Of a DNA stretch of 63,450 nt, positions 10,741-51,972 are shown in pieces. The notes beneath the pieces are model-generated. The model saw nothing but the letters and a program-made list of their open reading frames with translations. It was not told the origin of the DNA and did no database searches. The number at the start of each line of letters is the position of its first letter. The stretch's first letter is position 1. Origin of the DNA: an uncultured Candidatus Saccharibacteria bacterium (GTDB lineage: Bacteria > Patescibacteriota > Minisyncoccia > Spechtbacterales > HO2-43-30); NCBI GenBank assembly GCA_964374025.1, contig CAYJWU010000001.1:1-63450 (forward strand). Reading direction: 5' to 3'. The position numbers were made by a program, and so were the translations under genes.

Positions 10741-12780
10741 TTATTGTTGATATCCGAGTGTCTCTGCTTTCGCAAAGGCCTCTTCCGCTCTCTCTTTATT
10801 TCCCGAAAGATCATAAGCGCGGCCTAAATACCAATGGGATTCGCCGAGGTCAGGCTCCAAAGCCACGGATTTACTAAGTAAATCAATCGCCTTTTCATAG
10901 TCATTAGTGAACATATATACCTGCGCAAGGAGCCGATATCCCTGCTGATTCGTTGGGCTCATATCTATCGCGTTTTTCAACACGTCTTCGGCCCTGGCAA
11001 TAAATCCCGGATCGTATTCCTGCGCGTTAGTATAAAAATCGCCAAGGATAACCTGATGCCGGAAATCGTAAGGATTTTCTTCGGCGGTTTTACGCATAAT
11101 TTTCTCTACCTCCATTACAAAATCCGCCGGAACCTTTTTTTCCGTGTCTTTTCTTAATAAATCAGAAATATTGATTGTGAAAAATTCAACGATCTGGCGA
11201 TTTCCGAGCGAGTTTAGGGATATGCTCTTTTTGTAAAGTTCTATGGTGTCTCGCGCATTAAGCCCTCCCCTGCTTATCTTAATACCCCAGTGCGCCGCCT
11301 GAAACGACTGAACGCCAAAATAAAAAAGGGAATAAACAAGAATGGCTCCAACTATCGCGGAAATTACGGGGGAAGGAGCGCGCAGCGCCGATTTTTCCCC
11401 ACTTTCTTTTTCTACATCTTTGAAATACGCGGCGCTGCCCGCGAACGCAAGCGTAAAGAAAAACATAATATAGGTGTTGAGCATATCAAAAACAAGCAGA
11501 TTCTGAACAAAATAAGCCAGAAGCGCTACTGTTAGCGCGCTTGGTAAAAACCAGTTTTGCGGCTCGCGGAAAATTTTTCGCCACAACATAAATAGTGCCG
11601 AAACAAATATGGAAAGGTACGCCATGAGCCCGATAATTCCGGAGTGTATTAAATTATCAAGAATAACATTATGGGTCCTATCAAACCAAACCTCTCCTCC
11701 GCATTTATCCAAAGGCAAACAGGGATTGAAATATTTTGTAAATACCGCGTTAAAATTTTCCGGGCCCCAGCCCAAAATAGGCCGTTCCTTCGCCCCTTGC
11801 CATGCCATATTCCAGACAACTTTTCTTGCGCCAATTGAAGCGCTCGAAAAAAATCCCGGGAGATTATCAATAATAGCTTTATTTTGTGTTAAAGTCCCCC
11901 AACTCACAATACTGCCGAATAATATTCCTGCCGCAAAAATTGAGATAGCGATCGCACGGGCGAATTTCACTTTTTTTGCGAAAAACAGCCAGGCAAGAAA
12001 GAAAATCAGGAAACCGCCGAACATGGACAAAAACGCGCCGTGAGCAGTCGAGAAAAATACGGAAAGTATAAGCAATGCAATCCCAATGCCATAAAGCGCC
12101 TGTTTTTGCAGCACGCGCTCTTTGTAAAAAAGCCACATTCCAAAAAATATATTAAAAAGCAAATAGGCCGACATAAAGCTGGAGTTGCCTATGGTAGAGC
12201 CGTCCTTTGTGTCAAACGGTATAATTGATATTCCGATTTTTTGAAAAAGAAAAATAAGCGATACTATGGCGGCCGCAATAAACGAGGCGCTTAAAAGTTT
12301 CTTCCAATGAGATGCATCGCGGAACGTGGACGCAACAACAAGGAAAAACATAGCAAGATGTATCCAGTTTATAGTCCCTGCCATACGCTCAAGAGTGCTC
12401 CAAAAACTGCGCTCAAGGTTTATCCCGGTAAAAGAGGTTACGACAGTAACAAGCAAAAAGGATCCGAGCGCGATAGATATCGCGTTCCAGCGCGGACGGA
12501 ATTGTTTATTTGATACAGCAAGAAGAAGCCACGCCGCGAAGATAATTTCGGTAAATATCCAAAAAAACACCGACTTCGGGACAACAAATGGGAAAAAAAA
12601 CGCGGGGTGCACGACAAGCGGCGCAAAGAGCGCGATATACGCGCCCCAGCGGATAATTTCAACCAAAAATAAAGCAAACCCCGCCTTTGTCCCGCTACGC
12701 GGGACTTCGGCGGGCAAGCCGCTTTCGGCCTTTCGTTTTTTACGGTTTGACTTTCTTCCCATCTTGAATGAGCGATTCAT
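10741..12780 (-). CDS. O-antigen ligase / Wzy_C-family polytopic membrane protein fused to C-terminal TPR repeats
   Basis: 679 aa with ~12 hydrophobic segments, a periplasmic-loop-like region and a C-terminal TPR region (YRLLAQVYMFTNDYEKAIDLLSKSVALEPD..HWYLGRAY). Confidence 0.65.
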   Translation of the reverse strand: MNRSFKMGRKSNRKKRKAESGLPAEVPRSGTKAGFALFLVEIIRWGAYIALFAPLVVHPAFFFPFVVPKSVFFWIFTEIIFAAWLLLAVSNKQFRPRWNAISIALGSFLLVTVVTSFTGINLERSFWSTLERMAGTINWIHLAMFFLVVASTFRDASHWKKLLSASFIAAAIVSLIFLFQKIGISIIPFDTKDGSTIGNSSFMSAYLLFNIFFGMWLFYKERVLQKQALYGIGIALLILSVFFSTAHGAFLSMFGGFLIFFLAWLFFAKKVKFARAIAISIFAAGILFGSIVSWGTLTQNKAIIDNLPGFFSSASIGARKVVWNMAWQGAKERPILGWGPENFNAVFTKYFNPCLPLDKCGGEVWFDRTHNVILDNLIHSGIIGLMAYLSIFVSALFMLWRKIFREPQNWFLPSALTVALLAYFVQNLLVFDMLNTYIMFFFTLAFAGSAAYFKDVEKESGEKSALRAPSPVISAIVGAILVYSLFYFGVQSFQAAHWGIKISRGGLNARDTIELYKKSISLNSLGNRQIVEFFTINISDLLRKDTEKKVPADFVMEVEKIMRKTAEENPYDFRHQVILGDFYTNAQEYDPGFIARAEDVLKNAIDMSPTNQQGYRLLAQVYMFTNDYEKAIDLLSKSVALEPDLGESHWYLGRAYDLSGNKERAEEAFAKAETLGYQQ
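12680..12714. repeat. composite GC-rich hairpin CCCGCC-TTT-GTCCCGC-TAC-GCGGGAC-TTC-GGCGGG inside the ligase-like ORF
   Basis: Read directly. Encodes part of LPAEVPRSGTKAGF. Same inner stem as 46300-46317. Confidence 0.8.
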
Positions 12781-13549
12781 TTATCCTATCCACTGACTTG
12801 TGCAACTTTAGATCTATGCCCTGTTCTTTCGCGAATTGTATAAAAGTCTTTATATCTTTGGGCAGACATGCTCCCGCGTAACCCCTGAATCCTCCATGCC
12901 AAACATCGAAATGGCTATCGTTTATGCGCTTGTCGTACGTAAATCCAAGTTTTACTCTAGAGTAATCAGCTCCGACTTTTTGGCATACATCATAAATCTG
13001 ATTTGCGAAAACCACTTTGTGCGCGTAATAGGTATTGAGCATATACTTTATAATCTCTGCCTCAATGGCCGGTAAAATCAAACTTTGCGCGCGAGGCAAT
13101 AGGGGCATAATTTTTTCTGCTAGTTTTTTGGTTTGCGAATTTGTGTACCCTAAAATCTGTTTGTCCGGATACGCGAAATCCTCTTTCGCGTATGCCGCTG
13201 TCAAAAATTCAGGATTGAAAAGAATTTTTATTTTTGGAAACTTTTTATGGAAATAATCTGTTGTGCCGGGAGGGATTGTGGATTTTATCAGCGCAATTCT
13301 CCCCTGGGGAATTTTCGCGAGATTTTCATCTATCGCGGAAATATCCGCTCCGCGATACACACCGGGTTTTGAGGTTTTTGCGTAAGGAGTAGGCAAGCAA
13401 AGAAAAATACACGGCTGCGCCAGAACCTCTTCTAATGTATTTGGGGTTTGCACATACTTATCCCAAATTTTCGCCTCTTTGTAATGGTGTTTTACGGCGC
13501 TGCCGACATAGCCCGCGCCTATGATGCCAAGTTCGCTGTGTTTAAACAT
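12740..13549 (-). CDS. short UDP-glucose/GDP-mannose dehydrogenase-family protein lacking the C-terminal domain
   Basis: N-terminal GIIGAGYVGS Rossmann motif and catalytic-Cys context GYAGACLPKD. Only 269 aa. Its 3' end overlaps the next gene by 41 nt. Confidence 0.65.
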   Translation of the reverse strand: MFKHSELGIIGAGYVGSAVKHHYKEAKIWDKYVQTPNTLEEVLAQPCIFLCLPTPYAKTSKPGVYRGADISAIDENLAKIPQGRIALIKSTIPPGTTDYFHKKFPKIKILFNPEFLTAAYAKEDFAYPDKQILGYTNSQTKKLAEKIMPLLPRAQSLILPAIEAEIIKYMLNTYYAHKVVFANQIYDVCQKVGADYSRVKLGFTYDKRINDSHFDVWHGGFRGYAGACLPKDIKTFIQFAKEQGIDLKLHKSVDRINESLIQDGKKVKP

Positions 13550-13558
13550 TGCGAATAG

Positions 13559-14458
13559 TTAAATAATTGCGCAATTAAGTAATTGGGTAATTCCGTCTTT
13601 GAGATTCACTTTTGGCTCCCATCCCAGCATCCTCTTCGCTTTAGAAATATCCGCCAGCGTATCCTGCACCTCCCCGGGCCTTGCGGGTATATAAACGCAC
13701 TTTCCCCCAATAATATCAGCGACTTCCTGCACGCTATGGTTGTCTCCCGCGCCGGTATTTATAACCTCGCCTGCACCTCTTTCAATTTCTGAAGCTAAAA
13801 TATTTGCTTCTACAATATCAGACACATGCGTAAAGTCTCTTGTTTGTTTTCCGTCGCCCACTATGGTAAGGGGAGAGCCCTCTGCCCTCATGCGCAAAAA
13901 CTTGGAGATTACCGTGGCATATTCCCCATTTGGATCTGTGCGAGGGCCATATACGTTAAAATATCTCAACGAAATTGTATCAATGCCATAAAGGTCTGTA
14001 AACTCCCGGCATAGCTCCTCGCCAATATATTTTGAAAGCGCGTAGGGATTGAGCGGCTTTGGGCGCATATCTTCAGAGAGCGGCAACCTGTCTTGAGGTC
14101 CATACGCGGAAGACGAAGCGCTATAAACAACTCGTTTTACAAGCGCATCGCGCGCCGCCAAGAGAACGTTTAGGGTCCCCATCACATTGGAACGAAATAC
14201 TCCGGCAGGATCTTCTATGGAGCGACCTATCCTCGGAATTGCCGCGACATGAAAAACAGTATCCTTACCTTTAAATATCGGCTTAATGGCTGTAAGGTCC
14301 GCGATGTCGAACGGAAAAAACTCCGCGCCTTTATGGAGGTTCTCGCGCTTCCCCGTGGAGAGATTATCAATTATGCTAACCCTGTGTCCGTCACTGATAA
14401 GCCGCTCGACAAGGTTGCTGCCTATAAAGCCGGCGCCGCCGGTAACAAGTAAGTTCAT
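13559..14458 (-). CDS. NAD-dependent nucleotide-sugar epimerase/dehydratase (GalE/WbpP-like SDR)
   Basis: VTGGAGFIGSNL, SSSAYG, YALSK (YxxxK). Confidence 0.8.
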   Translation of the reverse strand: MNLLVTGGAGFIGSNLVERLISDGHRVSIIDNLSTGKRENLHKGAEFFPFDIADLTAIKPIFKGKDTVFHVAAIPRIGRSIEDPAGVFRSNVMGTLNVLLAARDALVKRVVYSASSSAYGPQDRLPLSEDMRPKPLNPYALSKYIGEELCREFTDLYGIDTISLRYFNVYGPRTDPNGEYATVISKFLRMRAEGSPLTIVGDGKQTRDFTHVSDIVEANILASEIERGAGEVINTGAGDNHSVQEVADIIGGKCVYIPARPGEVQDTLADISKAKRMLGWEPKVNLKDGITQLLNCAII

Positions 14459-16182
14459 AAAGAATAGATATAAATATTGTTGTCGCTAAAAAGTGCCTCG
14501 TCTATACCATAATCACCCAAGCGCCAATTGGGGTTTTGATTCTTATCCCACATTATATAACTAACCCTGTATTTTTTCAACCCTTCTCTAAATCCGGCCT
14601 CCTTTACCCTCGCTGCCGTATTTAAATAATTGCTTATGACAATCTCGGGGTATTCTTCTACTTCCCTTTCCTTAAAACCTAAAACTTTTCTCACTTTGTT
14701 TTCCTGAACAGCATGTTGGTATTCCGATTCGTAGCCATCTCCGTATATAGCAGTAAAATTCTTCTTTACGAAATTTTCGTTGATATTTTCAAAAAAGTTA
14801 GTAAGGGTAAATCTTTCAGCTATCTCCTCGTCGCTCATGAGATAAAAATTGACATACGGCGAATGAAGCACGTTATTGCGCGTATATACAGTCACAAAGT
14901 AGGAAAGCAATTGATTGACATACACAACTTCGTCTTTCTCTGTATTTTTGTTCAACCAGTCAAGCGCCGGGGCATATCTCTGTAAGTCGCTACCGGGGAA
15001 AGTTTCAACCATTTCTTTAATATCCAAAAAATTCATCCGGATAAATACGAATAAAGTACCCGATACCAAAAATAGCACAGCTGCTGTAATGGCCATATTC
15101 AAAGCTCTATTCATAACTTCCTTTAATGGAACTTCCTTTAGTAAAAACGCTAGAGAAAAAACCGACCAAAAAATCGCGCCCATAGCGTAATGGCTTGCAA
15201 ACTGTATATTCCTGCCGGTCAGAACATGCTGATTAACTGTTATGAGCGCCGCCGTAAGTCCGGCTATCATAAGCAAGGAAACGGGGCTTACGCGCAACAA
15301 CTTCCTTTTGATAAAAAACACATACAGCGCGAGGAGCGACGCGCAGGGAATTATTATCTTTATTCCGGAGGGAAAATGGCTGTAAATCAAACCTTGGCGA
15401 ACCATTATTTCTTGAAATTCTGCAAACTGCGAGGCCTGCAAGGCATACATAAAGTATGGGATGCCCAAAACTATACCGGCCCCCAAAATCATAAGGACTT
15501 TTTTCCCAAGATCCGGAAATTTATACACATAAAGCAACACAATGAACAGGGCAAGCAAACTTCCGTAGAATGTCCAATAATAAGGATATACATAGAACAA
15601 CAATCCAAAATTGACAGCGCAAAGACCCACAAAAAGTTTCCGTAAGCGCGTACTCCGCAAAAGTAAAACAAGTAAGATCAGCTGACTAATCCAAAAAGTC
15701 AAAATAAATTGAGGGCTAACTGGCCTGCCAAGAATGTGGAGGTACACAAGAACCGTCAAAAATGCGCAAGTTGTAAACGCGGCGGAGCGAGAGCGGGTCA
15801 ATAAAAACGCGCACCAATACGTGAGAAGCACAATGACGAAGGGAAAAATAAAATCGTAGAAGACAAAACCAATGGGGGCGCTTACATTAAACAACTTTAG
15901 CGGCTGAGCGAGAAGCCACTCCGATAAAAAAAACTGCATGGGCGGCTTATCTTTATGCTCATAAATGTAGGCATTACCCAAAGTGGGATGCCCATCAATA
16001 ATATCCTGAACCCTCGCGAGATAATGCTGTTCGTCATCATGAAAAGATATGTTTAATATACCCTGGAAATCGTCAACGGTAAAAATGTAAAAAAGTTGGG
16101 GAAGCACTATGAGACAGCCGACAACAAGCGCCAACCCAAAAATCGCCCAATGAGTTTTAATAAGTTTATTTAACTTGTTCAT
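14455..16182 (-). CDS. polytopic membrane protein with a soluble C-terminal domain (putative GT-C-type glycosyltransferase/polymerase); paralogue of 48538-50268
   Basis: 575 aa. The N-terminal region aligns by eye with the paralogue (ILPQL..F....DF.G......D.E.HYL.R......GHP.LGN). Confidence 0.6.
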   Translation of the reverse strand: MNKLNKLIKTHWAIFGLALVVGCLIVLPQLFYIFTVDDFQGILNISFHDDEQHYLARVQDIIDGHPTLGNAYIYEHKDKPPMQFFLSEWLLAQPLKLFNVSAPIGFVFYDFIFPFVIVLLTYWCAFLLTRSRSAAFTTCAFLTVLVYLHILGRPVSPQFILTFWISQLILLVLLLRSTRLRKLFVGLCAVNFGLLFYVYPYYWTFYGSLLALFIVLLYVYKFPDLGKKVLMILGAGIVLGIPYFMYALQASQFAEFQEIMVRQGLIYSHFPSGIKIIIPCASLLALYVFFIKRKLLRVSPVSLLMIAGLTAALITVNQHVLTGRNIQFASHYAMGAIFWSVFSLAFLLKEVPLKEVMNRALNMAITAAVLFLVSGTLFVFIRMNFLDIKEMVETFPGSDLQRYAPALDWLNKNTEKDEVVYVNQLLSYFVTVYTRNNVLHSPYVNFYLMSDEEIAERFTLTNFFENINENFVKKNFTAIYGDGYESEYQHAVQENKVRKVLGFKEREVEEYPEIVISNYLNTAARVKEAGFREGLKKYRVSYIMWDKNQNPNWRLGDYGIDEALFSDNNIYIYSL

Positions 16183-16186
16183 AAAG

Positions 16187-16567
16187 TTACCGAAATACTA
16201 TTTTCTTGCTTAAGGAAAAATTAAAAATCGCGGTGATAAAAGCGGCGATCGAAATTGATACAAGATAATAAACGGATAAAACTGAAGTCATCATATAAAC
16301 CAGCGCGGCGTTTATGAAAAAGGCACAGCAATAAATGAGAAGGAACTTTGCGTATTTCCTGAAATAATTTTCTTTTGAGTGACCGCGAAAAGTTATGTAT
16401 GAATTAGCAAAAAAGTTAAAAGTCCAGTTTACAAGTACTCCCCCAAGGAAGGCCCAGAAATACCAAAGTCCCGCAAATTCCTTAAGCGCGTACGCGACTC
16501 CCAAATTTAGCGCCAACCCCAACCCTCCAATAACGGAAAAGACAATAAATGGAATGGTATTTTTCAT
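16187..16567 (-). CDS. GtrA-family membrane protein
   Basis: 126 aa with four hydrophobic helices. The size and pattern are typical of GtrA-like proteins next to polyprenyl-phosphate glycosyltransferases. Confidence 0.65.
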   Translation of the reverse strand: MKNTIPFIVFSVIGGLGLALNLGVAYALKEFAGLWYFWAFLGGVLVNWTFNFFANSYITFRGHSKENYFRKYAKFLLIYCCAFFINAALVYMMTSVLSVYYLVSISIAAFITAIFNFSLSKKIVFR

Positions 16568-17124
16568 TTTTTGACTACAAATATAAATTCGATCTCTTCA
16601 AATCCCCCCACCCAGAAACACCAGACGCGGCCGCAAAGAATCGGCGAGAGGTTTGCAAAAAAGCTTAAGACTGCCCCCCCAATAGAGGCGGCGAGATAAA
16701 TAGACGGCGACAATGTCTGTTTTTTTAAGTATTTTTGAGCGAACCAAGAAAATTTTATTTTTTCAATTTCAAGTTCAACCCTCATGTATCCGCCCTTAAA
16801 ATCTTTTCTAAAATAGTAGGGAAACGTTACGTCAAACCCCCGCATGTGCTCCGGATGCGTAATCCCCCGCGAGAAATGGGGCGAACGTATTACAATTTTG
16901 CCTCCGTTCGCAGTAATCCGATGCAATTCCCGCATAACGCCAAAAGGGCTACTAAGATGTTCAAGGACATGATCCGCTTCTATATAATCAAAAGTGTTAT
17001 CCGAAAAAGGGTATGGGAACACATTTAAATCATGCAGAACATCCGGGCGCACCGATTCCAGCCAGTCCAAATTAACAAAACCTTCTTTTTTAAATTCTCC
17101 ACAACCCAAATTAAGTTTTTTCAT
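16564..17124 (-). CDS. class I SAM-dependent methyltransferase (Methyltransf_11-like) with a hydrophobic C-terminal tail
   Basis: LNLGCGEF motif and DHVLEHL. Start chosen at the ATG at 17124, which overlaps the asnB-like stop (ATGA). Confidence 0.7.
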   Translation of the reverse strand: MKKLNLGCGEFKKEGFVNLDWLESVRPDVLHDLNVFPYPFSDNTFDYIEADHVLEHLSSPFGVMRELHRITANGGKIVIRSPHFSRGITHPEHMRGFDVTFPYYFRKDFKGGYMRVELEIEKIKFSWFAQKYLKKQTLSPSIYLAASIGGAVLSFFANLSPILCGRVWCFWVGGFEEIEFIFVVKK

Positions 17125-19001
17125 ACTCCATTTTTTCCGAGCCACGTTTGCAGCACTAAAAGCGTCCATAGTTTCTTGCGATTGTCTTTTTTGCCTGAAA
17201 AATGCTCGTTTTTTAATCGGTCTATATAATCGAAGTTAAACAGTCCGGCTCTTTTAATAGCATCCTCCGACAGAATCTCGCTGCAAAAATTCCTAAGTTC
17301 TCCTTTGAGCCATCGGGCCACCGGCATCCCAAAGCCCTTCTTGCGCCTAAAAACTATATCTCGGGGCAGTTTGTCCTCCATCAGCTTTTTAAGAATGTAT
17401 TTGGTAGTAAATCGCTTATATTTCATATTATAGGGAAGGGAGCTTGCAAAATCAACCAAATGATAATCAAGGAATGGCGAACGGACCTCCAGGGCATTGA
17501 GCATGCTCGCGCGATCAGTTTTTACGAGTACCCCGTCCATCAAGTATGTCCGTAAATATACATATAAAAGTCTATCCTCAAACTTTTTGGCATTACACTC
17601 TTTGAAATAATAGTCGGTCTCCTCAAATTCATTTTTGCTTTTTAGATCCTCCCATAAATCTTGCCGGAATAACCTCGCCCTTGCCTCTGAATTAAAACTC
17701 CCAAGCCATGTTTGATGCACGTATTCTTTTCTTGGACTATACGTGCCTTCTATAAACTTTTTCACCTTAAAATCTAAACTAAAATTTCCACATGACACCG
17801 GCAAGGCCAGCAACAATTTTTCAATGAAATACTTTCTTAAAAACGCGGGGGTTCTCACGTAAAAATTGTAAAACGCGTGAGCTTGGAAAGTAGGGTAACC
17901 GGCAAATAATTCGTCTCCCCCATCCCCGCTCAAAGCGACTGTCGCATGCTTACGGGTGAATTTAGAGAGTAAAAATGTAGGGATAAGAGAAGCATCGGCC
18001 AACGGCTCGTCCATTGAATTAAAAATTAGCGGCAGAAGCGCTAAAGCGTCTTTTTCTTCTAATACGGCGCTCGCGTGATCGGTGCCCAAAAAATCGGCTG
18101 CTTTTTTAGCGTAAAGCGATTCGTCGAAACTATCCTCCTTAAAGCCGATTGAAAAAGTCTTTATTTTTTCCATGCTATTTTTTTGAGCGTAATAAGCTAT
18201 CGTAGAACTATCCAATCCCCCGCTTAAAAAAATCCCCAAGGGCACGTCGGCTATTAACCTCGCTTTAACGCTTCTTTCAAGCTCTCGGTCAAGAATAGTA
18301 AGCGCGTCGTCAAACTTAATGGTATTATTGCCGCAACCTGAAACTTGCCAAAAGCGCTTTTTCTGGACACGCCCTTCCGCGTAAGTCAAAATTGTAGCCG
18401 GCTCCAATTTATAAACGCCCTCGCATATGCTCCATGGGGTAGGCACATACTCATACAATAGGTATTTATTAACTGCTTGAAGGTTCAGTTTCTTTTGAAA
18501 GGAACTGTGGCGCATCAATGCCTTGAGCTCCGAACCAAAAATTAGGGTGGGACCAAATTTCGCCCAATACAGCGGCTTTTTGCCCAACCTATCGCGCGCG
18601 AGTATCAATTTATTATGGCGAAAATCGTAAATCGCGATCGCGAACATTCCGTTTAATTTGCTAAAACAATCCTCTCCGTATTCTTCGTATAAATAAATTA
18701 TCACTTCGGTATCGCTCTTACTCAAAAAACCGTACTTGCCTAATTTCAAAAGATCTTCGCGCAATTCCTTGAAGTTATATATCTCGCCATTAAAAACAAT
18801 GCCGATGGATTTTGCGGCATTAAACATCGGCTGGTCTCCCAAAGGACTCAAGTCAATAATGCTTAAACGCGCGTGCGCGAGACCAATGTTGCCCAAAGTA
18901 AAAACGCCCTGACTATCAGGGCCTCTATGCTTTATGGCGGCAATCATCTTATCTAAATCGTCCCGATTGCCGTTTCCTGCATAACCGGCTAACCCGCACA
19001 T
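17121..19001 (-). CDS. asparagine synthase (glutamine-hydrolysing)-family amidotransferase, copy 1
   Basis: MCG N-terminal nucleophile, NGEIYNF, SGGLDSS PP-loop. Confidence 0.9.
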   Translation of the reverse strand: MCGLAGYAGNGNRDDLDKMIAAIKHRGPDSQGVFTLGNIGLAHARLSIIDLSPLGDQPMFNAAKSIGIVFNGEIYNFKELREDLLKLGKYGFLSKSDTEVIIYLYEEYGEDCFSKLNGMFAIAIYDFRHNKLILARDRLGKKPLYWAKFGPTLIFGSELKALMRHSSFQKKLNLQAVNKYLLYEYVPTPWSICEGVYKLEPATILTYAEGRVQKKRFWQVSGCGNNTIKFDDALTILDRELERSVKARLIADVPLGIFLSGGLDSSTIAYYAQKNSMEKIKTFSIGFKEDSFDESLYAKKAADFLGTDHASAVLEEKDALALLPLIFNSMDEPLADASLIPTFLLSKFTRKHATVALSGDGGDELFAGYPTFQAHAFYNFYVRTPAFLRKYFIEKLLLALPVSCGNFSLDFKVKKFIEGTYSPRKEYVHQTWLGSFNSEARARLFRQDLWEDLKSKNEFEETDYYFKECNAKKFEDRLLYVYLRTYLMDGVLVKTDRASMLNALEVRSPFLDYHLVDFASSLPYNMKYKRFTTKYILKKLMEDKLPRDIVFRRKKGFGMPVARWLKGELRNFCSEILSEDAIKRAGLFNFDYIDRLKNEHFSGKKDNRKKLWTLLVLQTWLGKNGV

Positions 19002-19003
19002 TA

Positions 19004-19954
19004 TTAAAAATTAATTTTTTCTTTTATCCCGTACGGCCTCTTATTCTGCGACTCATAATAAGTTCGCGTCAGCATCTCGCCAATTATGCCCATAACTATG
19101 AGCTGTACTCCCACCATAATAAAAAGCGCGGCTAAAATGGGGAGCGGAGTTTCCACAAGACTTCTTATGCCTAGAATCTTAAGAACTAACGCGGCAAATC
19201 CAGTAATAAGGCCGAAGAAAAACGCGATGAAACCAATCCCGCCGAAAAAATGCATCGGCTTATTTAAATATTTATCCAAAAACTTTATGACAACAAGATC
19301 CAGCAAAACCGAAAAAGTGCGGCCAATTCCATACTTGCTTTTCCCTTTTGTTCTCTGCCTGTAGTTCACTGTAATTTCCCCGACTCTTGCGCCTCGCCAA
19401 AGGGCATAGGCGGGAATGAACCTATGCATTTCGCCGTAAAGGCGGACACCCGCGATAACTTCCTTCTTGTACGCCTTGAGCGTACAGCCATAATCGTGCA
19501 GATTTAACCCAGTAATTTTGGATATTAGAAAATTCGCGAGGATCGATGGGAGTTTCCGCGAAAGCCGTTTTTCCCGCCATCTATCCTTTCTCCATCCAGA
19601 AACAACGTCATATCCCTCCTGCATTTTATCCAATAATCTCACTATGTCCCGGGGATCATTTTCACGGTCGCTATCAATCGGGATAATAATATCCCCGGAA
19701 GCGTACTCAAAGCCCGCCGATAACGCGGCTGTCTGGCCGCAATTAGCAATAAAGTCAATCACCTTAACGCGCTTGTTGATCTTTACGGCTTCCTTCAAGA
19801 CCGACAAACTTTCGTCGCGGGATGCGTCATTTACGGCTAAAATTTCGTAATCGAATCCAGGGCCAAGGCCCTCAAGGACTGTAAAAAGCTCCCCAAACAA
19901 TGGATGTAAATTTTCTTTCTCGTTGTATACCGGCATCACTATTGATATCTTCAT
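19004..19954 (-). CDS. GT2 polyprenyl-phosphate glycosyltransferase (GtrB/ArnC/DPM1-like) with two C-terminal TM helices
   Basis: ISIVMPVYNEKENL, AVNDASRD, DSDREND. Confidence 0.85.
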   Translation of the reverse strand: MKISIVMPVYNEKENLHPLFGELFTVLEGLGPGFDYEILAVNDASRDESLSVLKEAVKINKRVKVIDFIANCGQTAALSAGFEYASGDIIIPIDSDRENDPRDIVRLLDKMQEGYDVVSGWRKDRWREKRLSRKLPSILANFLISKITGLNLHDYGCTLKAYKKEVIAGVRLYGEMHRFIPAYALWRGARVGEITVNYRQRTKGKSKYGIGRTFSVLLDLVVIKFLDKYLNKPMHFFGGIGFIAFFFGLITGFAALVLKILGIRSLVETPLPILAALFIMVGVQLIVMGIIGEMLTRTYYESQNKRPYGIKEKINF

Positions 19955-20847
19955 CTCGCGATTTCTCTTATTATTTTATAGGTAAGAGGAACGAACAAAA
20001 GCGGCAGCAGCACTGCTCCCACAAAAGAATACGTTACCCCTACCGCGAGGATTACCGTCCCCGGCGCAAGCGCGGAAAATAAAATGAGCATTGCTGTCTC
20101 GCGAGTTCCCACTCCCCAAACTGTAATAGGCAGTAAACTCACGAGCGTTACAAGCGGCTGAAGAGCAATTATCGGCAAAAGGGGCATATTCACATCAAAG
20201 GCAAGGAATGTAAGTTTTATATACAGCATTACCAAAAACCACGCAACAAACGTGGGCATAATTATGAGAAACATCATCCGTGGATGCCTAATCAAAGTAT
20301 TAAAGGCGTAAAGAAAATTCTCAAATTTACCACGAAATGCCGGAGGAACACTCTTTTTAAAAATAAGGGCCAAGTAATAGAAAAGGATTAGTACAGTAAT
20401 TATTGCTAACCCCGAAAAGTAGACCATCTCTTTTTCTATGACGAGCCCCCCGAGGATTGCTAGGGTCGCTAAAGCCGCAACATCTAGTACCATCCCTAGA
20501 AAAATTCCTCCTGCGTGTTTTGCTACGGGCACCTTATCTTTTAAATAGTACGCCCGCATAAAATCGCCGCCATACAACGGGACAATTTTCGTAACAGGGA
20601 TATTGGCTAAGTAAAGCCTGATTATAGTCTTAAGGCCTATATCTCTGCCCAACATTCTTAAAATTATTTTCCACCTCAAGGCGCTGACTACATGCGCTAA
20701 AAGCAATATAAGGGGAGATAAGGCGAGAAGGGGCTTATTAGATTCATTAAACACTTCACGAATCTCGCCAATATCAATCCGGGAAAACAAAACAAAGAGT
20801 ATCAATATGGCGGCTAGAACGGGTAACAAAAATTTTATCTTTTTCAT
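19951..20847 (-). CDS. flippase-like (UPF0104 / lysyl-PG synthase TM-region family) membrane protein
   Basis: 298 aa, ~8 TM segments, translationally coupled to the GT2 gene. Confidence 0.5.
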   Translation of the reverse strand: MKKIKFLLPVLAAILILFVLFSRIDIGEIREVFNESNKPLLALSPLILLLAHVVSALRWKIILRMLGRDIGLKTIIRLYLANIPVTKIVPLYGGDFMRAYYLKDKVPVAKHAGGIFLGMVLDVAALATLAILGGLVIEKEMVYFSGLAIITVLILFYYLALIFKKSVPPAFRGKFENFLYAFNTLIRHPRMMFLIIMPTFVAWFLVMLYIKLTFLAFDVNMPLLPIIALQPLVTLVSLLPITVWGVGTRETAMLILFSALAPGTVILAVGVTYSFVGAVLLPLLFVPLTYKIIREIAR

Positions 20848-20853
20848 TGGTTA

Positions 20854-21648
20854 TTACGTTCGAAATTTTGCTCTTACTACGATATTCCAACTTAAAAACT
20901 TGAATGCCCCTGGAAGACACGCATCTAAGATTTTATCAATTAAGATCGCGAGTTTACTAAGCGCCACGCTAATAACTTGCGGATTTACAATGACCTGCGC
21001 GAATGGGGGGGTAAAAAAGCCCTGAAACTCAAGCTCTATATTTTGAAAATTATGTTTTGCGAGAATCTCATATAATTCTTTTTTGGAAAAAAACTTTTGA
21101 TCTTTCGAGTACGCGGGGTTCACTCGCGCCCACAGCCACCGCAAAGCTTGGATAAGTGGGTTAGCCCTATTTGGCTCAACCGCTATGAAATACGCGCCGG
21201 GCTTTGCGATATATATCAATGCCTTAATTACTCTGTCTAATTCTGTCATATGGTGGAGAGCGCCTACGGCTAAAATAAGATCCGCGCCATGAGGGCCAAT
21301 GGGACACGCCGTTGTATCCTTAATATTCGCCCTGATAAATTCTGCCCTTTTATTCGCGCCGTACATGTCTCTCGCTTTCGCGATAAGCCGCGCGGAGTAA
21401 TCTACCCCTATGTACCTTGCGTAATAACCTTCAAGATATTTACTTGAAGCGCCAAGACCGCAAGCGATTTCTATTATAGTGTTAAGCCGCGAGGATTTTT
21501 TTAATACGGGCTCCACCGCAAACATTAGCTGATATTGCCGCGGCAAAGAAGAGGACCTGACGATATCTTTTTGCGCGTACTTTTGAGCGATCCTGTCAAA
21601 AAGAGCTTGGTCTTGCTCTTCGATTATGCGTTCGTGGATATGGGCCAT
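20854..21648 (-). CDS. class I SAM-dependent methyltransferase
   Basis: IIEIACGLGASS motif I; LILAVGALHHM. Confidence 0.75.
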   Translation of the reverse strand: MAHIHERIIEEQDQALFDRIAQKYAQKDIVRSSSLPRQYQLMFAVEPVLKKSSRLNTIIEIACGLGASSKYLEGYYARYIGVDYSARLIAKARDMYGANKRAEFIRANIKDTTACPIGPHGADLILAVGALHHMTELDRVIKALIYIAKPGAYFIAVEPNRANPLIQALRWLWARVNPAYSKDQKFFSKKELYEILAKHNFQNIELEFQGFFTPPFAQVIVNPQVISVALSKLAILIDKILDACLPGAFKFLSWNIVVRAKFRT

Positions 21649-21655
21649 GCTAATT

Positions 21656-22489
21656 CTAGAGCGTCACTTTTTTATTTATAAGATCTGCCAAAAACCCAAG
21701 CATAAATATAAGAATGGCGGTGTTTAGCGTAACAACCGATGCGTCTCCCACGTCATGCAGAACAAAAATGTCCATTCCAAGAAGCACGACTCCAATCAGA
21801 AATAGAAAAAGGCCTATCGGCAAAAAAACCTTGAGGGGATTAAAGTACATCACCACGCGTACAATTAGCTGCAAAAAATTTAATGTGTCCCGAATTGGCC
21901 GTATTTTTGACTTCCCAACGCGCGCGTTATAAGAAACTGGCACAAACTTTACCCTAAGATCAGTGCTTAAAAAAGCTAGGGTCAGCGTAGTGCTTAAAGA
22001 AAAACCCTGCGGCAGGATATGAAAAAATCTAAGAGCCGCGCCTTTCTTAAATACTCGGAGCCCGGAGTTTAAATCGGGAATTTTATAGTCCACAAGATAG
22101 TTCGCAAGTTTATTCAAAAGCCATTTCGCCGGCTTTCTCAATAAAGGGACTCTTTGAAATGGCCGGCTTCCTATGACCATATCGTACTCCTTTATATAAT
22201 TTACCAATTTGGGTATATCTCCTACGGAGTGTTCCGTATCCGCGTCGCAAGTTACGATGATGTCGTTTGCCGCCTCTCTTATGCCTGTTTTTATTGCCGC
22301 GCCATATCCTTTATTTGATTCATGGCTTATAATTTTTACAGGGAAATCATGCGCGATTTTGTAGGTTGAATCGGTTGAACCGTCGTCAACAACAATCACC
22401 TCTGCAGGCATCTGAAGCGCGAGTATGCCGCTCAAGATCTTCCCGATTGATTTTTCTTCGTTGTATACTGGAATAACAATAGAAATCAT
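21656..22489 (-). CDS. GT2 glycosyltransferase (DPM1-like) with C-terminal TM helices
   Basis: ISIVIPVYNEEKSI, VVDDGSTDST, DADTEH. ATG at 22489 is preferred over the TTG at 22519. Confidence 0.85.
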   Translation of the reverse strand: MISIVIPVYNEEKSIGKILSGILALQMPAEVIVVDDGSTDSTYKIAHDFPVKIISHESNKGYGAAIKTGIREAANDIIVTCDADTEHSVGDIPKLVNYIKEYDMVIGSRPFQRVPLLRKPAKWLLNKLANYLVDYKIPDLNSGLRVFKKGAALRFFHILPQGFSLSTTLTLAFLSTDLRVKFVPVSYNARVGKSKIRPIRDTLNFLQLIVRVVMYFNPLKVFLPIGLFLFLIGVVLLGMDIFVLHDVGDASVVTLNTAILIFMLGFLADLINKKVTL

Positions 22490-22521
22490 GATATATTTTA
22501 CTATAATATAGTATAACAAAT

Positions 22522-23691
22522 ATGCTAAAAAGCAAGCTGCTCAATAGCAATACTTTCTTTTGTTTAGTCATTTTTGCGATAAGTTCAATAATTGGCGTTA
22601 CGTTTAACATTCTTACGCCCGATTTCCCCCTTAACCGAGATACTATTAATCATTACCATCCGATAGCCGAGAGTATTAGAGATGGAACCGGATTTGGCGA
22701 GCGCGGCGAGCCAACGGCCCGCGTCGCGCCGGGATATCCATTTTTTCTATCGCTAATCTATAGAGCGGGAGGAGGATTTGAAGCGGCTCGTATCGTTCAA
22801 ATTTTTATACTTGCCGGAATAAGTTTATTTGGGTACTTAATAGCTAAGAGATTCGTCGCTCGAAACTTCGCTTTCCTTGCGGCGCTGAATATCGCCGCGT
22901 GGCCGTATTTATTGCTGTACAGCAAACTCATCCTAACCGAAGTATTATCCATATTCTTTCTTATAGCCGCGGTTTACGCGCTGATCAATTTTTACGAAAA
23001 GCCAAGCACAAAAACAGCAATTCTCTCCGGCGCAATGCTCGGCATAACCGCCCTCACTCGACCTCTCGTCCTATTATTGCCGTTCTGGCTAGTTGGTTTA
23101 GCGTTACTTTTTGCGATACTATTTCGCAGAATGCGTCGCGTAACGTACGAATGGAAAAAATACTTTATTCTTCTTGCTGTTTTTATACTGACACTCTCCC
23201 CCTGGACCATTAGAAATTTTCTAGAGTTTAATGCTTTTATTCCGATAGCAGGCGGCTTAGAGGACAGCGTAAAACGCGCTTATGAAAGATTGGATTACAC
23301 AAAAGGATCAAAGGTGTTAAAGCCCGGAGAAGCAACGATCTTAGACAACGCGCGAGCGCGGCTAAAAAACATCTATTTATTTTGGAATCCCGGCGCGGGA
23401 GGAACGAACGCCGAACTTCTCCTTAAACAAAACCGGCTTTTCGGCGCGGCTTTTCTTATCTATAAAATAATTTTTATTTTAACCGTAGCCCTCGCGGCCC
23501 TTGGGCTATACCTTGAAAGAAAAAAAACCGCGATACTTCTTGGAGTTGTGATCCTCTACTTTTGGGCAGTGCATGTGATACTCTATCCATACCCCCGCTA
23601 TACGCTGCCAATTATGCCGCTAGTTATAATCCTCGCCTGGCTAGCGATAAGCTTGCTATGGAACCGTATAAGATATACATTAAAGCGATGA
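22522..23691 (+). CDS. GT-C fold glycosyltransferase (ArnT / PMT_2 / GT39-83-like)
   Basis: 389 aa, polytopic. An early loop (RDGTGFGERGEPTARVAPGYPFFL) is typical of ArnT-like enzymes. Confidence 0.6.
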   Translation: MLKSKLLNSNTFFCLVIFAISSIIGVTFNILTPDFPLNRDTINHYHPIAESIRDGTGFGERGEPTARVAPGYPFFLSLIYRAGGGFEAARIVQIFILAGISLFGYLIAKRFVARNFAFLAALNIAAWPYLLLYSKLILTEVLSIFFLIAAVYALINFYEKPSTKTAILSGAMLGITALTRPLVLLLPFWLVGLALLFAILFRRMRRVTYEWKKYFILLAVFILTLSPWTIRNFLEFNAFIPIAGGLEDSVKRAYERLDYTKGSKVLKPGEATILDNARARLKNIYLFWNPGAGGTNAELLLKQNRLFGAAFLIYKIIFILTVALAALGLYLERKKTAILLGVVILYFWAVHVILYPYPRYTLPIMPLVIILAWLAISLLWNRIRYTLKR

Positions 23692-50268: not shown

Positions 50269-50273
50269 TGAAT

Positions 50274-50873: not shown

Positions 50874-50876
50874 AAT

Positions 50877-51971: not shown

Positions 51972-51972
51972 G

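What the first reader, a model, noticed from the sequence alone, without database searches (positions are those of the whole stretch)
14455..19001. Duplicated module: AsnB-type amidotransferase, Methyltransf_11 methyltransferase, ~575-aa polytopic membrane protein (second copy at 48538-53832)
Two stretches of the island repeat the same gene logic on the minus strand.
- 19001->14455: AsnB (626 aa), methyltransferase (186 aa), GtrA, membrane protein (575 aa).
- 53832->48538: AsnB (619 aa), GT4, methyltransferase (199 aa), membrane protein (576 aa).

The two membrane proteins are clear paralogues. Their N-termini align by eye: ..ILPQLFYIFTVDDFQGI...DDEQHYLARVQDIIDGHPTLGN vs ..ILPQLVFMFSAQDFSGI...DAEHHYLTRIREVYDGHPALGN. 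I cannot assign them to a named family. Each has about 11-13 TM segments plus a ~170-aa C-terminal soluble domain, which is GT-C-like or polymerase-like.

The recurrent linkage suggests a functional unit. It might amidate and methylate a (uronic or ulosonic) acid residue and transfer or polymerise it outside the membrane.
Basis: partly seen in the sequence, partly recalled or inferred. Interest (0 to 1): 0.6.

Follow-up and report, generated by a model that had tools for sequence, protein, structure and literature searches.

The report
Unnamed GT-C sugar transferases, two copies
The two ~575-residue membrane proteins belong to a large, unnamed family of ultra-small (Patescibacteria) bacteria with the fold of enzymes that attach lipid-carried sugars to the cell surface from outside; the amidotransferase and methyltransferase beside them are recurrent but optional tailoring partners.

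Summary
Both gene sets sit at the stated coordinates as tightly coupled minus-strand operons, and the components are old paralogues (membrane proteins 26% identical, E 6e-41; AsnB 37%; methyltransferases 27%).

The membrane proteins match no Pfam or NCBIfam model. AlphaFold models of both are confident (pLDDT 90 and 92), and their best 29 PDB matches are all GT-C glycosyltransferases (OST/STT3, DPY19, PglB, AglB, AftA, ArnT). They have 11 TM helices. An acidic D-x-E motif in the first outside loop aligns with the PMT_2/ArnT aspartate.

The family is large (about 1,100 clusters at 50% identity) and almost confined to Patescibacteria.

Its steady partners are not AsnB:
- a polyprenyl-phosphate sugar synthase (GT2) lies within 5 kb in 95% of 60 loci;
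- a methyltransferase does in 87%;
- GtrA does in 25%;
- AsnB does in only 13%.

Natural GtrA, GT2 and GT4 fusions to the family exist.

Module 1 is therefore an Arn/Gtr-like multi-component outside-the-membrane glycosylation system. Its AsnB and small methyltransferase probably tailor a uronic-acid sugar. The GT2-AsnB-methyltransferase cassette also pairs with YfhO and PMT_2 GT-C enzymes elsewhere. Donor sugar and acceptor remain unknown.

The parts
14455..16182 (-). W1: 575-aa GT-C-fold glycosyltransferase of an unnamed Patescibacteria family. It has 11 TM helices, a D49-D50-E51 motif in the first outside loop, and an outside C-terminal domain of about 190 aa.
   Evidence: No Pfam or NCBIfam hit. 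AF2 model pLDDT 89.9, pTM 0.89. The Foldseek top 29 PDB hits are all GT-C. hhalign to PMT_2-like proteins gives probability 95.3%, E 2e-8.
16187..16567 (-). GtrA-family small membrane protein (126 aa), the proposed flippase for the lipid-linked sugar.
   Evidence: PF04138, E 8e-18. GtrA is fused to the N-terminus of at least 9 family members elsewhere.
16564..17124 (-). Small class I SAM methyltransferase. It is 186 aa from the ATGA-coupled start; the maximal ORF of 201 aa reaches 17169.
   Evidence: Methyltransf_11, E 1.2e-7. Relatives at 41-59% identity lie next to or near AsnB in L037, L095, L046 and L033. The start overlap is shown.
17121..19001 (-). AsnB-type glutamine-dependent amidotransferase (626 aa) with the N-terminal Cys2 and the SGGLDS PP-loop.
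   Evidence: Asn_synthase E 5.7e-100 and GATase_7. TIGR01536 scores 474 bits, above its cutoff; TIGR03108 scores 552 bits, below its cutoff of 817.
19004..19954 (-). GT2 (316 aa) with two C-terminal TM helices: an ArnC/GtrB-type polyprenyl-phosphate sugar synthase.
   Evidence: Full-length match to ArnC (E 6.5e-48) and GtrB sll0501 (E 3e-40) in the PDB. Glycos_transf_2, E 5e-29.
13559..14458 (-). UDP-hexose/HexNAc 4-epimerase-like SDR (299 aa), overlapping W1 by 4 nt.
   Evidence: Best PDB matches are UDP-glucose 4-epimerase (E 4e-61) and WbpP/WbgU (E about 1e-56).
12740..13549 (-). Short UDP-sugar 6-dehydrogenase-like protein (269 aa) without the C-terminal domain.
   Evidence: UDPG_MGDP_dh central and N domains. 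Matches UDP-glucose dehydrogenases over their residues of about 90-316.
48538..50268 (-). W2: 576-aa paralogue of W1 from a different deep clade, with the same GT-C fold and a D46-A47-E48 motif.
   Evidence: BLASTP to W1, E 6e-41. AF2 model pLDDT 92.1, pTM 0.92. The Foldseek top 29 hits are all GT-C, with AftA at TM 0.52 and ArnT at 0.49-0.51.
50274..50873 (-). Small class I methyltransferase (199 aa), a subfamily distinct from the module 1 enzyme.
   Evidence: Methyltransf_11, E 4e-12. It is 30% identical over 198 aa to the L006 methyltransferase that sits next to a w2-type AsnB.
50877..51980 (-). GT4 glycosyltransferase (367 aa).
   Evidence: Glycos_transf_1, E 1.8e-23. Close relatives lie in L095 and L098 (E 3e-70 and 1e-73).
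51973..53832 (-). Second AsnB-type amidotransferase (619 aa), with Cys2 and the SGGIDS PP-loop.
   Evidence: Its closest match among the loci is next to the family gene in L006 (E 2.7e-175).
47504..48541 (-). GT4 glycosyltransferase (345 aa), overlapping W2 by 4 nt.
   Evidence: Glycos_transf_1, E 1.8e-38.
19951..22519 (-). The upstream part of the same operon: DPMS/ArnC-like GT2 (21656-22519, 287 aa), methyltransferase (20854-21648, 264 aa), and an LPG_synthase_TM flippase-like protein (19951-20847, 298 aa). This is a possible second lipid-sugar supply line, for W2 or for the divergent PMT_2 gene.
   Evidence: Pfam. The GT2 matches DPMS (E 4e-18) and ArnC (E 9e-15) in the PDB.
22522..23691 (+). 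PMT_2-family protein (389 aa), a third GT-C-type candidate in the island, transcribed divergently.
   Evidence: PF13231, E 5.8e-10.

Best explanation
W1 and W2 are GT-C-fold glycosyltransferases of an unnamed family found almost only in Patescibacteria. [quoted passage not shown]

Proposed steps for module 1:
1. Sugar supply (inferred). The 4-epimerase and the short UDP-sugar dehydrogenase supply a UDP-hexuronic or HexNAc-uronic acid.
2. Lipid loading (homology shown, activity inferred). The ArnC/GtrB-like GT2 (19004-19954) loads a monosaccharide onto polyprenyl phosphate on the cytoplasmic face.
3. Tailoring (inferred). AsnB converts the sugar's carboxylate to an amide using ATP and glutamine, and the small methyltransferase adds a methyl group. 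This happens either on the nucleotide sugar or on the lipid-linked sugar; ArnD acts on a lipid-linked sugar in the Arn pathway (general knowledge).
4. Flipping (inferred from family). GtrA flips the lipid-linked sugar to the outside.
5. Transfer (fold and topology shown, chemistry inferred). W1 uses the D-x-E motif of its first outside loop to transfer the sugar to an unknown surface acceptor, which could be a glycan, lipid or protein.

Module 2 has the same last step but carries no GT2 or GtrA of its own. It sits among GT4 genes. W2 probably draws its donor from one of the island's two polyprenyl-phosphate GT2 enzymes.

AsnB and the methyltransferase are optional tailoring modules, not part of the family's core.
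For: Fold:
- Both AF2 models are confident.
- For both, the 29 best PDB matches are GT-C enzymes.

Remote homology: the family profile aligns to PMT_2-like proteins at 95% probability, and the family's EL1 acidic motif lies on the PMT_2 conserved Asp-x3-Tyr.

Topology:
- W1 has 11 TM helices, with K+R counts of 17 in inside loops and 4 in outside loops.
- All conserved polar motifs and the C-terminal domain are outside.

Partner identity:
- The window's GT2 is a full-length ArnC/GtrB homologue.
- The small GT2 next to family members elsewhere matches dolichol-phosphate mannose synthase (E 3e-30).

Fusions: among 190 family proteins there are at least 9 GtrA fusions, 5 GT2 fusions and 1 GT4 fusion.

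Synteny in 60 non-redundant loci:
- GT2 lies within 5 kb in 57, often adjacent or fused.
- A methyltransferase does in 52, GtrA in 15, and AsnB in 8.

Interchangeability: the cassette ArnC-like GT2 + AsnB + small methyltransferase is joined to different GT-C families in different genomes.
- With this family in the window, L037, L095 and L098.
- With a YfhO-family GT-C in G084.
- A looser version (AsnB, GT4, a 293-aa methyltransferase of another subfamily, GT2) precedes a PMT_2-GtrA fusion in G125.

AsnB catalytic motifs are intact in both copies.

Literature: definitions of such systems and of GT-C hallmarks are in PMC8035078 and PMC11127046. A glycan cluster combining asnB, a UDP-ManNAc dehydrogenase, methyltransferases and Pse genes is described in PMC6120980.
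Against: - No biochemical data exist for any family member, so donor, acceptor and chemistry are inferred.
- Module 2 lacks an adjacent GT2 and GtrA.
- GtrA is near only 25% of family genes.
- GT2 and class I methyltransferase genes are common in any glycan island, and I computed no matched background. The fusions, not the proximity counts, carry the weight.
- AsnB is found in 19% of genomes of the phylum, mostly without this family, and usually sits among GT4 genes. Its presence here could therefore reflect shared island residence.
- Genome-level association is weak: odds ratio 3.8, p 0.024 with the window's own genome; 3.1, p 0.06 without it.
- TM-scores to solved GT-C structures are only about 0.4-0.5.
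- TIGR01536 scores both AsnB proteins above its cutoff as ordinary asparagine synthase.
Confidence: 0.7

Rival explanations
1. AsnB and the methyltransferases share the island with W1 and W2 but do not work with them. They tailor nucleotide sugars for the cytoplasmic GT4/GT2-built polymer. That polymer is started by the Bac_transf enzyme (23562-25049) and exported by the ABC transporter (25039-26847) or handled by the Wzy_C-TPR protein. The GT-C enzymes add an unrelated, unmodified side-chain sugar.
For: - AsnB occurs in 78 of 401 genomes of the phylum, and 72 of those lack the family.
- In 20 AsnB loci from genomes where the family search found no copy, its commonest neighbours are GT4 genes.
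- In module 2 AsnB is flanked by GT4 genes.
- On the family tree the AsnB linkage is not clustered and needs 5-7 gains or losses.
Against: - In module 1 and its counterparts (L037, L095, L098), AsnB sits directly after the ArnC-like GT2 with gaps of 2-15 nt. It lies inside the GT2...GtrA...GT-C set and not among GT4 genes.
- The same GT2-AsnB-methyltransferase trio travels with a different GT-C family in G084.
Confidence: 0.25
2. W1 and W2 are oligosaccharyltransferase-like enzymes. They would move a preassembled oligosaccharide from polyprenyl diphosphate onto protein (PglB/AglB-like) rather than a single sugar from polyprenyl monophosphate.
For: - OST catalytic subunits (STT3, AglB, PglB) and the protein C-mannosyltransferase DPY19 are among the top Foldseek hits for both models.
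- The island encodes an initiating phosphoglycosyl transferase and an ABC flippase-like protein.
Against: - There is no WWD(YG) motif in W1 or W2, and only 1 of 190 family proteins contains WWD.
- The family fuses to, and sits beside, polyprenyl-monophosphate sugar synthases and GtrA, the signature of monosaccharide donors.
- AftA and ArnT match about as well as OST (TM 0.49-0.52).
- Sequence-level remote homology is to PMT_2/ArnT-like proteins.
Confidence: 0.08
3. The membrane proteins are Wzy-type polymerases, O-antigen ligases or transporters, not glycosyltransferases.
For: They are polytopic membrane proteins in a polysaccharide island with no family assignment.
Against: - There is no Wzy_C or transporter hit.
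- Transporters appear in Foldseek only at E > 0.1 with TM about 0.1.
- A separate Wzy_C-TPR protein and an ABC transporter are already present.
Confidence: 0.03

Closest known systems
Three-component / multi-component transmembrane glycosylation systems: GtrA-GtrB-Gtr(type) of Shigella/Salmonella, and CsbB-GtcA-YfhO or GtlA-GtcA-GtlB of Firmicutes (PMC8035078, PMC11127046)
   Same: The parts match: a GT2 polyprenyl-phosphate sugar synthase with C-terminal TM helices, a GtrA-family small membrane protein, and a polytopic GT-C enzyme with an acidic motif in an outside loop. In module 1 all three are encoded together. In G084 the same GT2-AsnB-methyltransferase cassette is followed by a true YfhO-family protein.
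   Different: - The GT-C belongs to a family with no Pfam or NCBIfam model. It matches no YfhO model at the thresholds used, and PMT_2 only faintly in 2 of 36 members.
- A methyltransferase lies near the family gene in 87% of loci, and in some loci an AsnB amidotransferase is inserted between synthase and transferase.
- The host is a Patescibacteria genome of about 0.8 Mb whose surface acceptors are unknown.
Arn pathway for lipid A modification (ArnA, B, C, D, E/F, T)
   Same: - The window's GT2 is a full-length ArnC homologue (E 6.5e-48).
- ArnT is among the structural matches (TM up to 0.51).
- The pathway logic is shared: a UDP-uronic-acid-derived sugar is loaded on undecaprenyl phosphate, tailored, flipped and transferred outside by a GT-C. 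That ArnD tailors the lipid-linked sugar is general knowledge, not tested here.
   Different: - There are no ArnA, ArnB or ArnD counterparts in module 1. An AsnB amidotransferase and a methyltransferase stand in their place.
- The flippase candidate is GtrA, not ArnE/F.
- I assume the acceptor cannot be lipid A, because Patescibacteria are generally reported to lack lipopolysaccharide; this rests on my own knowledge and was not tested here.
AftA arabinofuranosyltransferase (PDB 8if8), with the OST/DPY19 structures
   Same: These are the best structural matches. AftA gives the highest TM-score for W2 (0.52) with the lowest rmsd. All share the GT-C architecture and use of polyprenyl-phosphate or dolichol-linked donors.
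   Different: Sequence identity is 8-14%. The OST WWDYG motif is absent. No decaprenyl-phosphoarabinose genes were seen among the window's annotated genes.
AsnB-like amidotransferases of surface-glycan clusters: WbpS of P. aeruginosa O6 and WbtH of Francisella (from my own knowledge), Tanf_01265 of Tannerella forsythia (PMC6120980), and the XrtA/PEP-CTERM amidotransferase TIGR03108
   Same: All are AsnB family enzymes with intact glutaminase Cys and PP-loop. They sit in a glycan cluster next to a UDP-sugar dehydrogenase, an epimerase, methyltransferases and nonulosonic-acid genes.
   Different: Both window proteins score below the TIGR03108 cutoff (552 and 447 bits against 817). No substrate is known. 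Here the gene is embedded in a lipid-linked, outside-the-membrane glycosylation module.

Membership tests
GT-C glycosyltransferase superfamily | Polytopic membrane domain of 7-13 TM helices with an extracytoplasmic loop or domain after TM1 (PMC11127046) | tested here: met
   W1 has 11 TM helices and a 66-residue first outside loop with two short helices. The positive-inside count is 17 against 4. W2 has the same layout.
GT-C glycosyltransferase superfamily | Structural similarity to solved GT-C enzymes | tested here: met
   Foldseek against the PDB. For W1, ranks 1-29 are all GT-C, with best E 3.9e-7 and TM 0.40-0.49. For W2, ranks 1-29 are all GT-C, with best E 2.2e-6 and TM up to 0.52. These are predicted models, not experimental structures.
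GT-C glycosyltransferase superfamily | Conserved DxD or modified acidic motif in an extracellular loop (PMC8035078) | tested here: met
   W1 has D49-D50-E51 and W2 has D46-A47-E48, in the first outside loop. The Asp is at least 90% conserved and the Glu 87% conserved across the family. The motif aligns with the conserved Asp of PMT_2-like proteins. A catalytic role is not shown.
GT-C glycosyltransferase superfamily | Uses a polyprenyl-phosphate-linked sugar donor | not testable with these tools
   Indirect evidence only: fusions to GT2 and GtrA, and adjacency to DPMS/ArnC-like GT2 enzymes.
Three-component (Gtr-type) glycosylation system | A polyprenyl-phosphate sugar synthase (GT2, GtrB/ArnC/DPMS-like) encoded with the GT-C | tested here: met
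   Met for module 1: GT2 at 19004-19954, ArnC E 6.5e-48. Not met for module 2, which has no GT2 within the module. Family-wide, 57 of 60 loci have one.
Three-component (Gtr-type) glycosylation system | A small flippase candidate (GtrA family or equivalent) encoded with the GT-C | tested here: inconclusive
   Present in module 1 (PF04138, E 8e-18) and absent from module 2. Family-wide it is within 5 kb in 15 of 60 loci, plus N-terminal fusions.
PMT_2 (PF13231) / ArnT-like GT-C families | Match to the Pfam model at its gathering score | tested here: not met
   Neither window protein hits the model. Only 2 of 36 family members hit PMT_2, at E 0.003 or weaker. Only a profile-profile relation is found (probability 95%, columns 43-246).
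YfhO (PF09586) | Match to the Pfam model | tested here: not met
   No YfhO hit in W1, W2 or any of the 36 aligned members at E <= 0.05. The true YfhO protein of G084 shows no relation to the family profile.
Oligosaccharyltransferase (STT3/PglB/AglB) | WWDYG-type motif in the C-terminal outside domain | tested here: not met
   There is no WWD in W1 or W2, and only 1 of 190 family proteins contains WWD.
Wzy polymerase / O-antigen ligase (Wzy_C, PF04932) | Match to the Pfam model or fold | tested here: not met
   No Pfam hit and no such structure among the Foldseek matches.
Glutamine-hydrolysing asparagine synthase family (AsnB) | N-terminal nucleophile Cys2, PP-loop SGGxDS, and a family model above its cutoff | tested here: met
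   The N-termini are MCG... and the PP-loops are SGGLDS and SGGIDS. TIGR01536 scores 474 and 469 bits against a cutoff of 267. Membership says nothing about the carboxylate substrate.
XrtA/PEP-CTERM system amidotransferase (TIGR03108) | Score above the curated cutoff (816.9 bits) | tested here: not met
   The two proteins score 551.6 and 446.7 bits.

The most novel reading that the evidence does not exclude
AsnB and the small methyltransferase may act on the polyprenyl-phosphate-linked sugar, or on a dedicated UDP-uronic acid made only for it. A Patescibacteria-wide 'five-component' system would then build an amidated and/or methylated acid sugar on the lipid carrier. It would hand that sugar to interchangeable GT-C enzymes (this family, YfhO or PMT_2) that decorate the surface of these ultra-small, host-attached cells. 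That would be a new way of making uronamide sugars, and a new CAZy-level GT-C family.
Probability: 0.25. Interest if true: 0.65.

Novelty: new variant of a known kind. Interest (0 to 1): 0.45.

Why it matters
- **Unknown surface chemistry.** Patescibacteria (CPR) are mostly uncultured and have tiny genomes, and little is known about their surface chemistry (my own knowledge). This genome nevertheless spends roughly 55 of its 778 kb on one glycan island.
- **A function for a large unnamed family.** Assigning about 1,100 unnamed sequence clusters to the GT-C fold and to lipid-sugar-dependent outside glycosylation gives them a testable function.
- **A candidate tailoring route.** The GT2-AsnB-methyltransferase cassette plugs into three different GT-C families. 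This points to a specific modified sugar, probably an amidated or methylated uronic acid, as a recurrent surface decoration.
- **A handle for experiments.** The system gives a starting point for glycan mass spectrometry, for glyco-engineering, and for understanding surface variation in these organisms.
- **Limits.** The general mechanism is already well known, and an earlier follow-up in this scan described what seems to be the same or a related family. The advance is therefore incremental.

Tried and rejected
- **Family and sequence searches on the membrane proteins gave nothing useful.** Pfam and NCBIfam scans found nothing. A profile search of PDB sequences returned only chance hits.
- **Wzy, ligase and transporter readings** were rejected on fold.
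- **The OST reading** was rejected as a family assignment, because the WWD motif is absent and the partners are monophosphate-sugar synthases.
- **A recent tandem or segmental duplication of the module** was rejected. There is no DNA similarity beyond 269 nt at 65%, and the paralogues lie in different deep clades.
- **More family copies** were looked for among the other large unassigned membrane proteins of the window (8952-10733, 42957-44396, 45201-46832). None was found.
- **AsnB as an obligate partner** was tested by genome co-occurrence and by mapping onto the family tree, and rejected.
- **The 605-aa and 566-aa membrane proteins of G084** were compared with the family by hhalign and showed no relation. 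Pfam then showed the 566-aa protein to be YfhO.
- **PDB searches with the methyltransferases** gave only generic class I matches and no substrate clue.
- **A flaw in my first gene-picking script.** It dropped ORFs whose longest start overlapped a labelled neighbour, which hid the 605-aa gene in L046. Later statistics used stop-to-stop frames and domain coordinates instead.
- **Literature.** A search for Patescibacteria + GT-C + glycosyltransferase found no paper.

Full report
**1. The observation**

Module 1 reads:
- GT2, 19004-19954, 316 aa.
- AsnB, 17121-19001, 626 aa.
- Methyltransferase, 16564-17124. It is 186 aa from an ATG that overlaps the AsnB stop as ATGA. The longest ORF is 201 aa.
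- GtrA, 16187-16567, 126 aa.
- Membrane protein W1, 14455-16182, 575 aa.
- A 4-epimerase-like SDR (13559-14458) and a short UDP-sugar dehydrogenase-like gene (12740-13549) follow.

Module 2 reads:
- AsnB, 51973-53832, 619 aa.
- GT4, 50877-51980.
- Methyltransferase, 50274-50873, 199 aa.
- Membrane protein W2, 48538-50268, 576 aa.
- GT4, 47504-48541.

Neighbouring genes are separated by -8 to +12 nt, so each set is a translationally coupled operon. Pfam confirms every domain call.

The components are paralogous but old:
- W1 and W2 are 26% identical over their full length (E 6e-41).
- The AsnB proteins are 37% identical (E 7e-127).
- The methyltransferases are 27% identical over 85 residues (E 9e-9).
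- At the DNA level only 269 nt inside AsnB align, at 65%.
- The window and the whole 778-kb, 34-contig genome hold exactly two family copies.

**2. What the membrane proteins are**

Neither protein matches any Pfam or NCBIfam model. A profile search of PDB sequences gives only chance hits.

Homologues are plentiful:
- The word-indexed search found 40, all labelled hypothetical, from Parcubacteria-type MAGs.
- The exhaustive search of 50%-identity representatives found 1,135 clusters at E <= 1e-3 and 748 at E <= 1e-10.

Structure prediction:
- An AlphaFold2 model of W1 built on 36 homologues has mean pLDDT 89.9 and pTM 0.89.
- W2, built on 40 sequences, has pLDDT 92.1 and pTM 0.92.
- Foldseek against the PDB returns only GT-C glycosyltransferases in the first 29 places for each model. 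These include yeast and human STT3, C. elegans DPY19, AglB, PglB, AftA, ArnT, AftD, AftB, ALG3/ALG9, PMT and EmbA/B.
- Best E-values are 3.9e-7 and 2.2e-6, with TM-scores of 0.4-0.52. Unrelated transporters and receptors follow at E > 0.1 with TM about 0.1.

At the sequence level, the family profile aligns to PMT_2-type proteins from the same kind of islands. Probability is 95.3% and E is 2e-8 over columns 43-246. This places the family's 'D-D/x-E..Y' on the PMT_2 'D...Y' motif.

Topology of W1:
- The model has 11 TM helices.
- The N-terminus and the short inside loops carry 17 Lys+Arg. The short outside loops carry 4.
- This puts the 66-residue first loop and the 190-residue C-terminal alpha/beta domain outside.

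The residues conserved across 134 family members all lie on the outside face. They are E51, Y54, R57, G64, N70, K77, R153, P157, Y197, Y199, W203, N317, Q318, T322, G323, H331, Q401, Y433 and T434.

These are the hallmarks of GT-C enzymes as defined in PMC11127046 and PMC8035078. The OST-specific WWD motif is absent.

**3. Who the family works with**

Rosetta-stone fusions. Among 190 family proteins collected here, at least 9 carry an N-terminal GtrA domain, 5 an N-terminal GT2 domain and 1 a GT4 domain.

Partner identity:
- The 316-aa GT2 of module 1 is a full-length homologue of ArnC (E 6.5e-48) and GtrB (E 3e-40).
- The roughly 240-aa GT2 that sits next to family genes elsewhere matches archaeal dolichol-phosphate mannose synthase (E 3e-30).
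- Both are polyprenyl-monophosphate sugar synthases.

Synteny. I assembled 60 non-redundant family loci with at least 3 kb on both sides and labelled neighbours with seed-based profiles. Within 5 kb of the family gene:

| Neighbour | Loci (of 60) | Share |
|---|---|---|
| GT2 | 57 (3 fused, many adjacent) | 95% |
| Class I methyltransferase | 52 | 87% |
| GT4 | 40 | 67% |
| GtrA | 15 | 25% |
| AsnB | 8 | 13% |
| Second family copy | 7 | 12% |

- The commonest architecture is [GtrA]-GT2(DPMS-like)-methyltransferase(about 290 aa)-GT-C, seen in roughly 22 loci.
- In L008, L084 and L086 no other labelled glycan gene lies within 5 kb. In L008 the flanking genes are unrelated housekeeping genes.
- I did not compute a matched background for the proximity counts, so the fusions carry the main weight.

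**4. How far the AsnB-methyltransferase linkage holds**

Genome sampling in the phylum:
- The family occurs in 13 of 401 sampled genomes and AsnB in 78.
- Six genomes have both, always on one contig within 16 kb.
- Seven family genomes have no AsnB, and 72 AsnB genomes lack the family.
- The odds ratio is 3.8 (p 0.024), or 3.1 (p 0.06) without the window's own genome.

On the family tree:
- W1 and W2 sit in different deep clades (supports 99 and 97).
- AsnB linkage needs 5-7 changes and is no more clustered than shuffled labels.

AsnB is therefore not a core partner. In AsnB loci from genomes where the family search found no copy, its usual neighbours are GT4 genes.

Even so, the linkage is not a one-off.

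Module 1 has component-level counterparts elsewhere:
- L037 (G060) carries GtrA, GT2 (E 3e-112 to the window's), AsnB (4e-146), methyltransferase (6e-67) and the GT-C.
- L095 and L098 carry the GT-C followed by GT2 (about 1e-116), AsnB (about 1e-193), a methyltransferase (a w201-type match in L095 only) and GtrA. So the order is permuted.

Module 2 has a counterpart in L006: w2-type AsnB (2.7e-175), w199-type methyltransferase and w353-type GT4.

In all 8 AsnB-positive family loci a methyltransferase hit lies within about 1.5 kb of AsnB, adjacent in most. The w201-type methyltransferases are 41-59% identical.

The cassette is not tied to this GT-C family:
- L037's GT-C belongs to W2's clade, although its GT2, AsnB and methyltransferase match module 1.
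- In G084 the cassette (GT2 312 aa, AsnB 626 aa, methyltransferase 194 aa) is accompanied by an unassigned 605-aa polytopic protein and a 566-aa YfhO-family GT-C.
- In G125, AsnB, a GT4, a 293-aa methyltransferase of another subfamily and a 279-aa GT2 precede a PMT_2-GtrA fusion.

The simplest reading is that GT2 + AsnB + methyltransferase (+ GtrA) make and deliver a particular lipid-linked sugar. The GT-C, which sets the acceptor, is exchangeable.

**5. Most likely mechanism**

Shown:
- The fold, topology and conserved outside motifs of W1 and W2.
- The homology of the GT2 to ArnC/GtrB.
- The GtrA family membership.
- The intact AsnB catalytic motifs: Cys2 and the SGGxDS PP-loop.
- The fusions and synteny.

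Inferred:
- The GT2 loads a monosaccharide on polyprenyl phosphate, GtrA flips it, and W1 transfers it to a surface acceptor through the D-x-E loop.
- AsnB adenylates a sugar carboxylate and amidates it. The methyltransferase methylates the same sugar.

A uronic acid is suggested by two genes fused to the 3' end of the module 1 operon: a WbpP/GalE-like 4-epimerase and a short UDP-sugar dehydrogenase-like gene. It is also suggested by known AsnB-like enzymes of glycan clusters:
- WbpS and WbtH, which I cite from my own knowledge.
- The T. forsythia O-glycan cluster, which combines asnB, wecC, methyltransferases and Pse genes (PMC6120980).

Whether tailoring happens on the nucleotide sugar or on the lipid-linked sugar is open.

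W2 has no GT2 or GtrA of its own. The island encodes a second DPMS/ArnC-like GT2 (21656-22519), followed by a methyltransferase and an LPG_synthase_TM flippase-like protein. It also encodes a divergent PMT_2 protein. So there are two candidate lipid-sugar supply lines for three GT-C-type enzymes.

**6. Comparison with known systems, and novelty**

The system works like the Gtr, CsbB-GtcA-YfhO and Arn pathways. It is not a member of the PMT_2, YfhO, OST or Wzy families by their own models.

- The GT-C family is unnamed in the libraries available here. I could not check CAZy.
- A literature search found no paper linking Patescibacteria and GT-C.
- An earlier follow-up in this scan (e1-3898083) reached the same fold assignment for what looks like the same or a related family in a Falkowbacteria genome. 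My result agrees with it but was obtained independently.
- Two things go beyond a new family member. Methyltransferases are regularly embedded in the system. The GT2-AsnB-methyltransferase cassette is shared among three GT-C families.

I rate it a new variant of a known kind, of moderate interest.

Noticed in passing
L046:2449-7818 and L063:7263-8963 (G084:C35): The same ArnC-like GT2 (312 aa), AsnB (626 aa) and small methyltransferase (194 aa, E 3e-78 to the window's) occur without this family. Between AsnB and the methyltransferase lies an unassigned 605-aa polytopic protein (L046:3260-5077, no Pfam hit). A 566-aa YfhO-family GT-C follows the methyltransferase.
   Followed up: partly
L052:5001-11175 (G125:C1): AsnB (629 aa), GT4, a methyltransferase (293 aa) and a GT2 (279 aa) are followed by a 526-aa protein that fuses a PMT_2 GT-C domain to a C-terminal GtrA domain. 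This is another Rosetta-stone link between GT-C enzymes and GtrA.
   Followed up: partly
L008:5684-8990, and also L005, L007, L084, L086 and others: The commonest context of the family is a DPMS-like GT2 (about 240 aa), a conserved methyltransferase of about 290 aa (39-53% identical between loci) and the GT-C. In L008 it stands among unrelated housekeeping genes. The role of this methyltransferase is unknown, and the window has no clear counterpart.
   Followed up: partly
window 19951-23691: A DPMS/ArnC-like GT2 (287 aa), a methyltransferase (264 aa) and an LPG_synthase_TM (MprF-flippase-like, 298 aa) sit back to back with a divergent PMT_2 protein (389 aa). This may be a further outside-glycosylation set that uses an MprF-type flippase domain instead of GtrA.
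   Followed up: partly
window 8952-62375: One almost uninterrupted glycan island covers more than 50 kb of a 778-kb genome. It includes a nonulosonic-acid operon (NeuB, DegT, two CMP-transferases, formyltransferase, HisH/HisF-like), a Bac_transf initiating enzyme, an ABC exporter, a Wzy_C-TPR protein, seven GT4 domains, two NodB-type deacetylases and a FemAB/GNAT-like protein.
   Followed up: partly
window 12740-13549: The UDP-sugar dehydrogenase-like gene is only 269 aa and lacks the C-terminal domain. L006 carries a similar 292-aa form near its family gene, so the short form may be a natural variant and not decay.
   Followed up: no
L041:8001-9900 (G350:C1:149277-151146): One family copy is split into 485-aa and 153-aa frames, so it is a frameshifted or decaying paralogue. 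G350 has three family matches and G244 at least three within about 15 kb, so local multiplication of the family is common.
   Followed up: no
L122 (Euryarchaeota SAG AAA252-I15) and P0008 (MAG labelled Nanoarchaeota): Distant family members (22% and 39% identity) occur in records labelled as archaea. This could be real transfer between episymbiont lineages or mislabelled bins.
   Followed up: no
window 8952-10733, 42957-44396, 45201-46832: Three further large ORFs (593, 479 and 543 aa) have no Pfam hit and are not related to the family profile.
   Followed up: no
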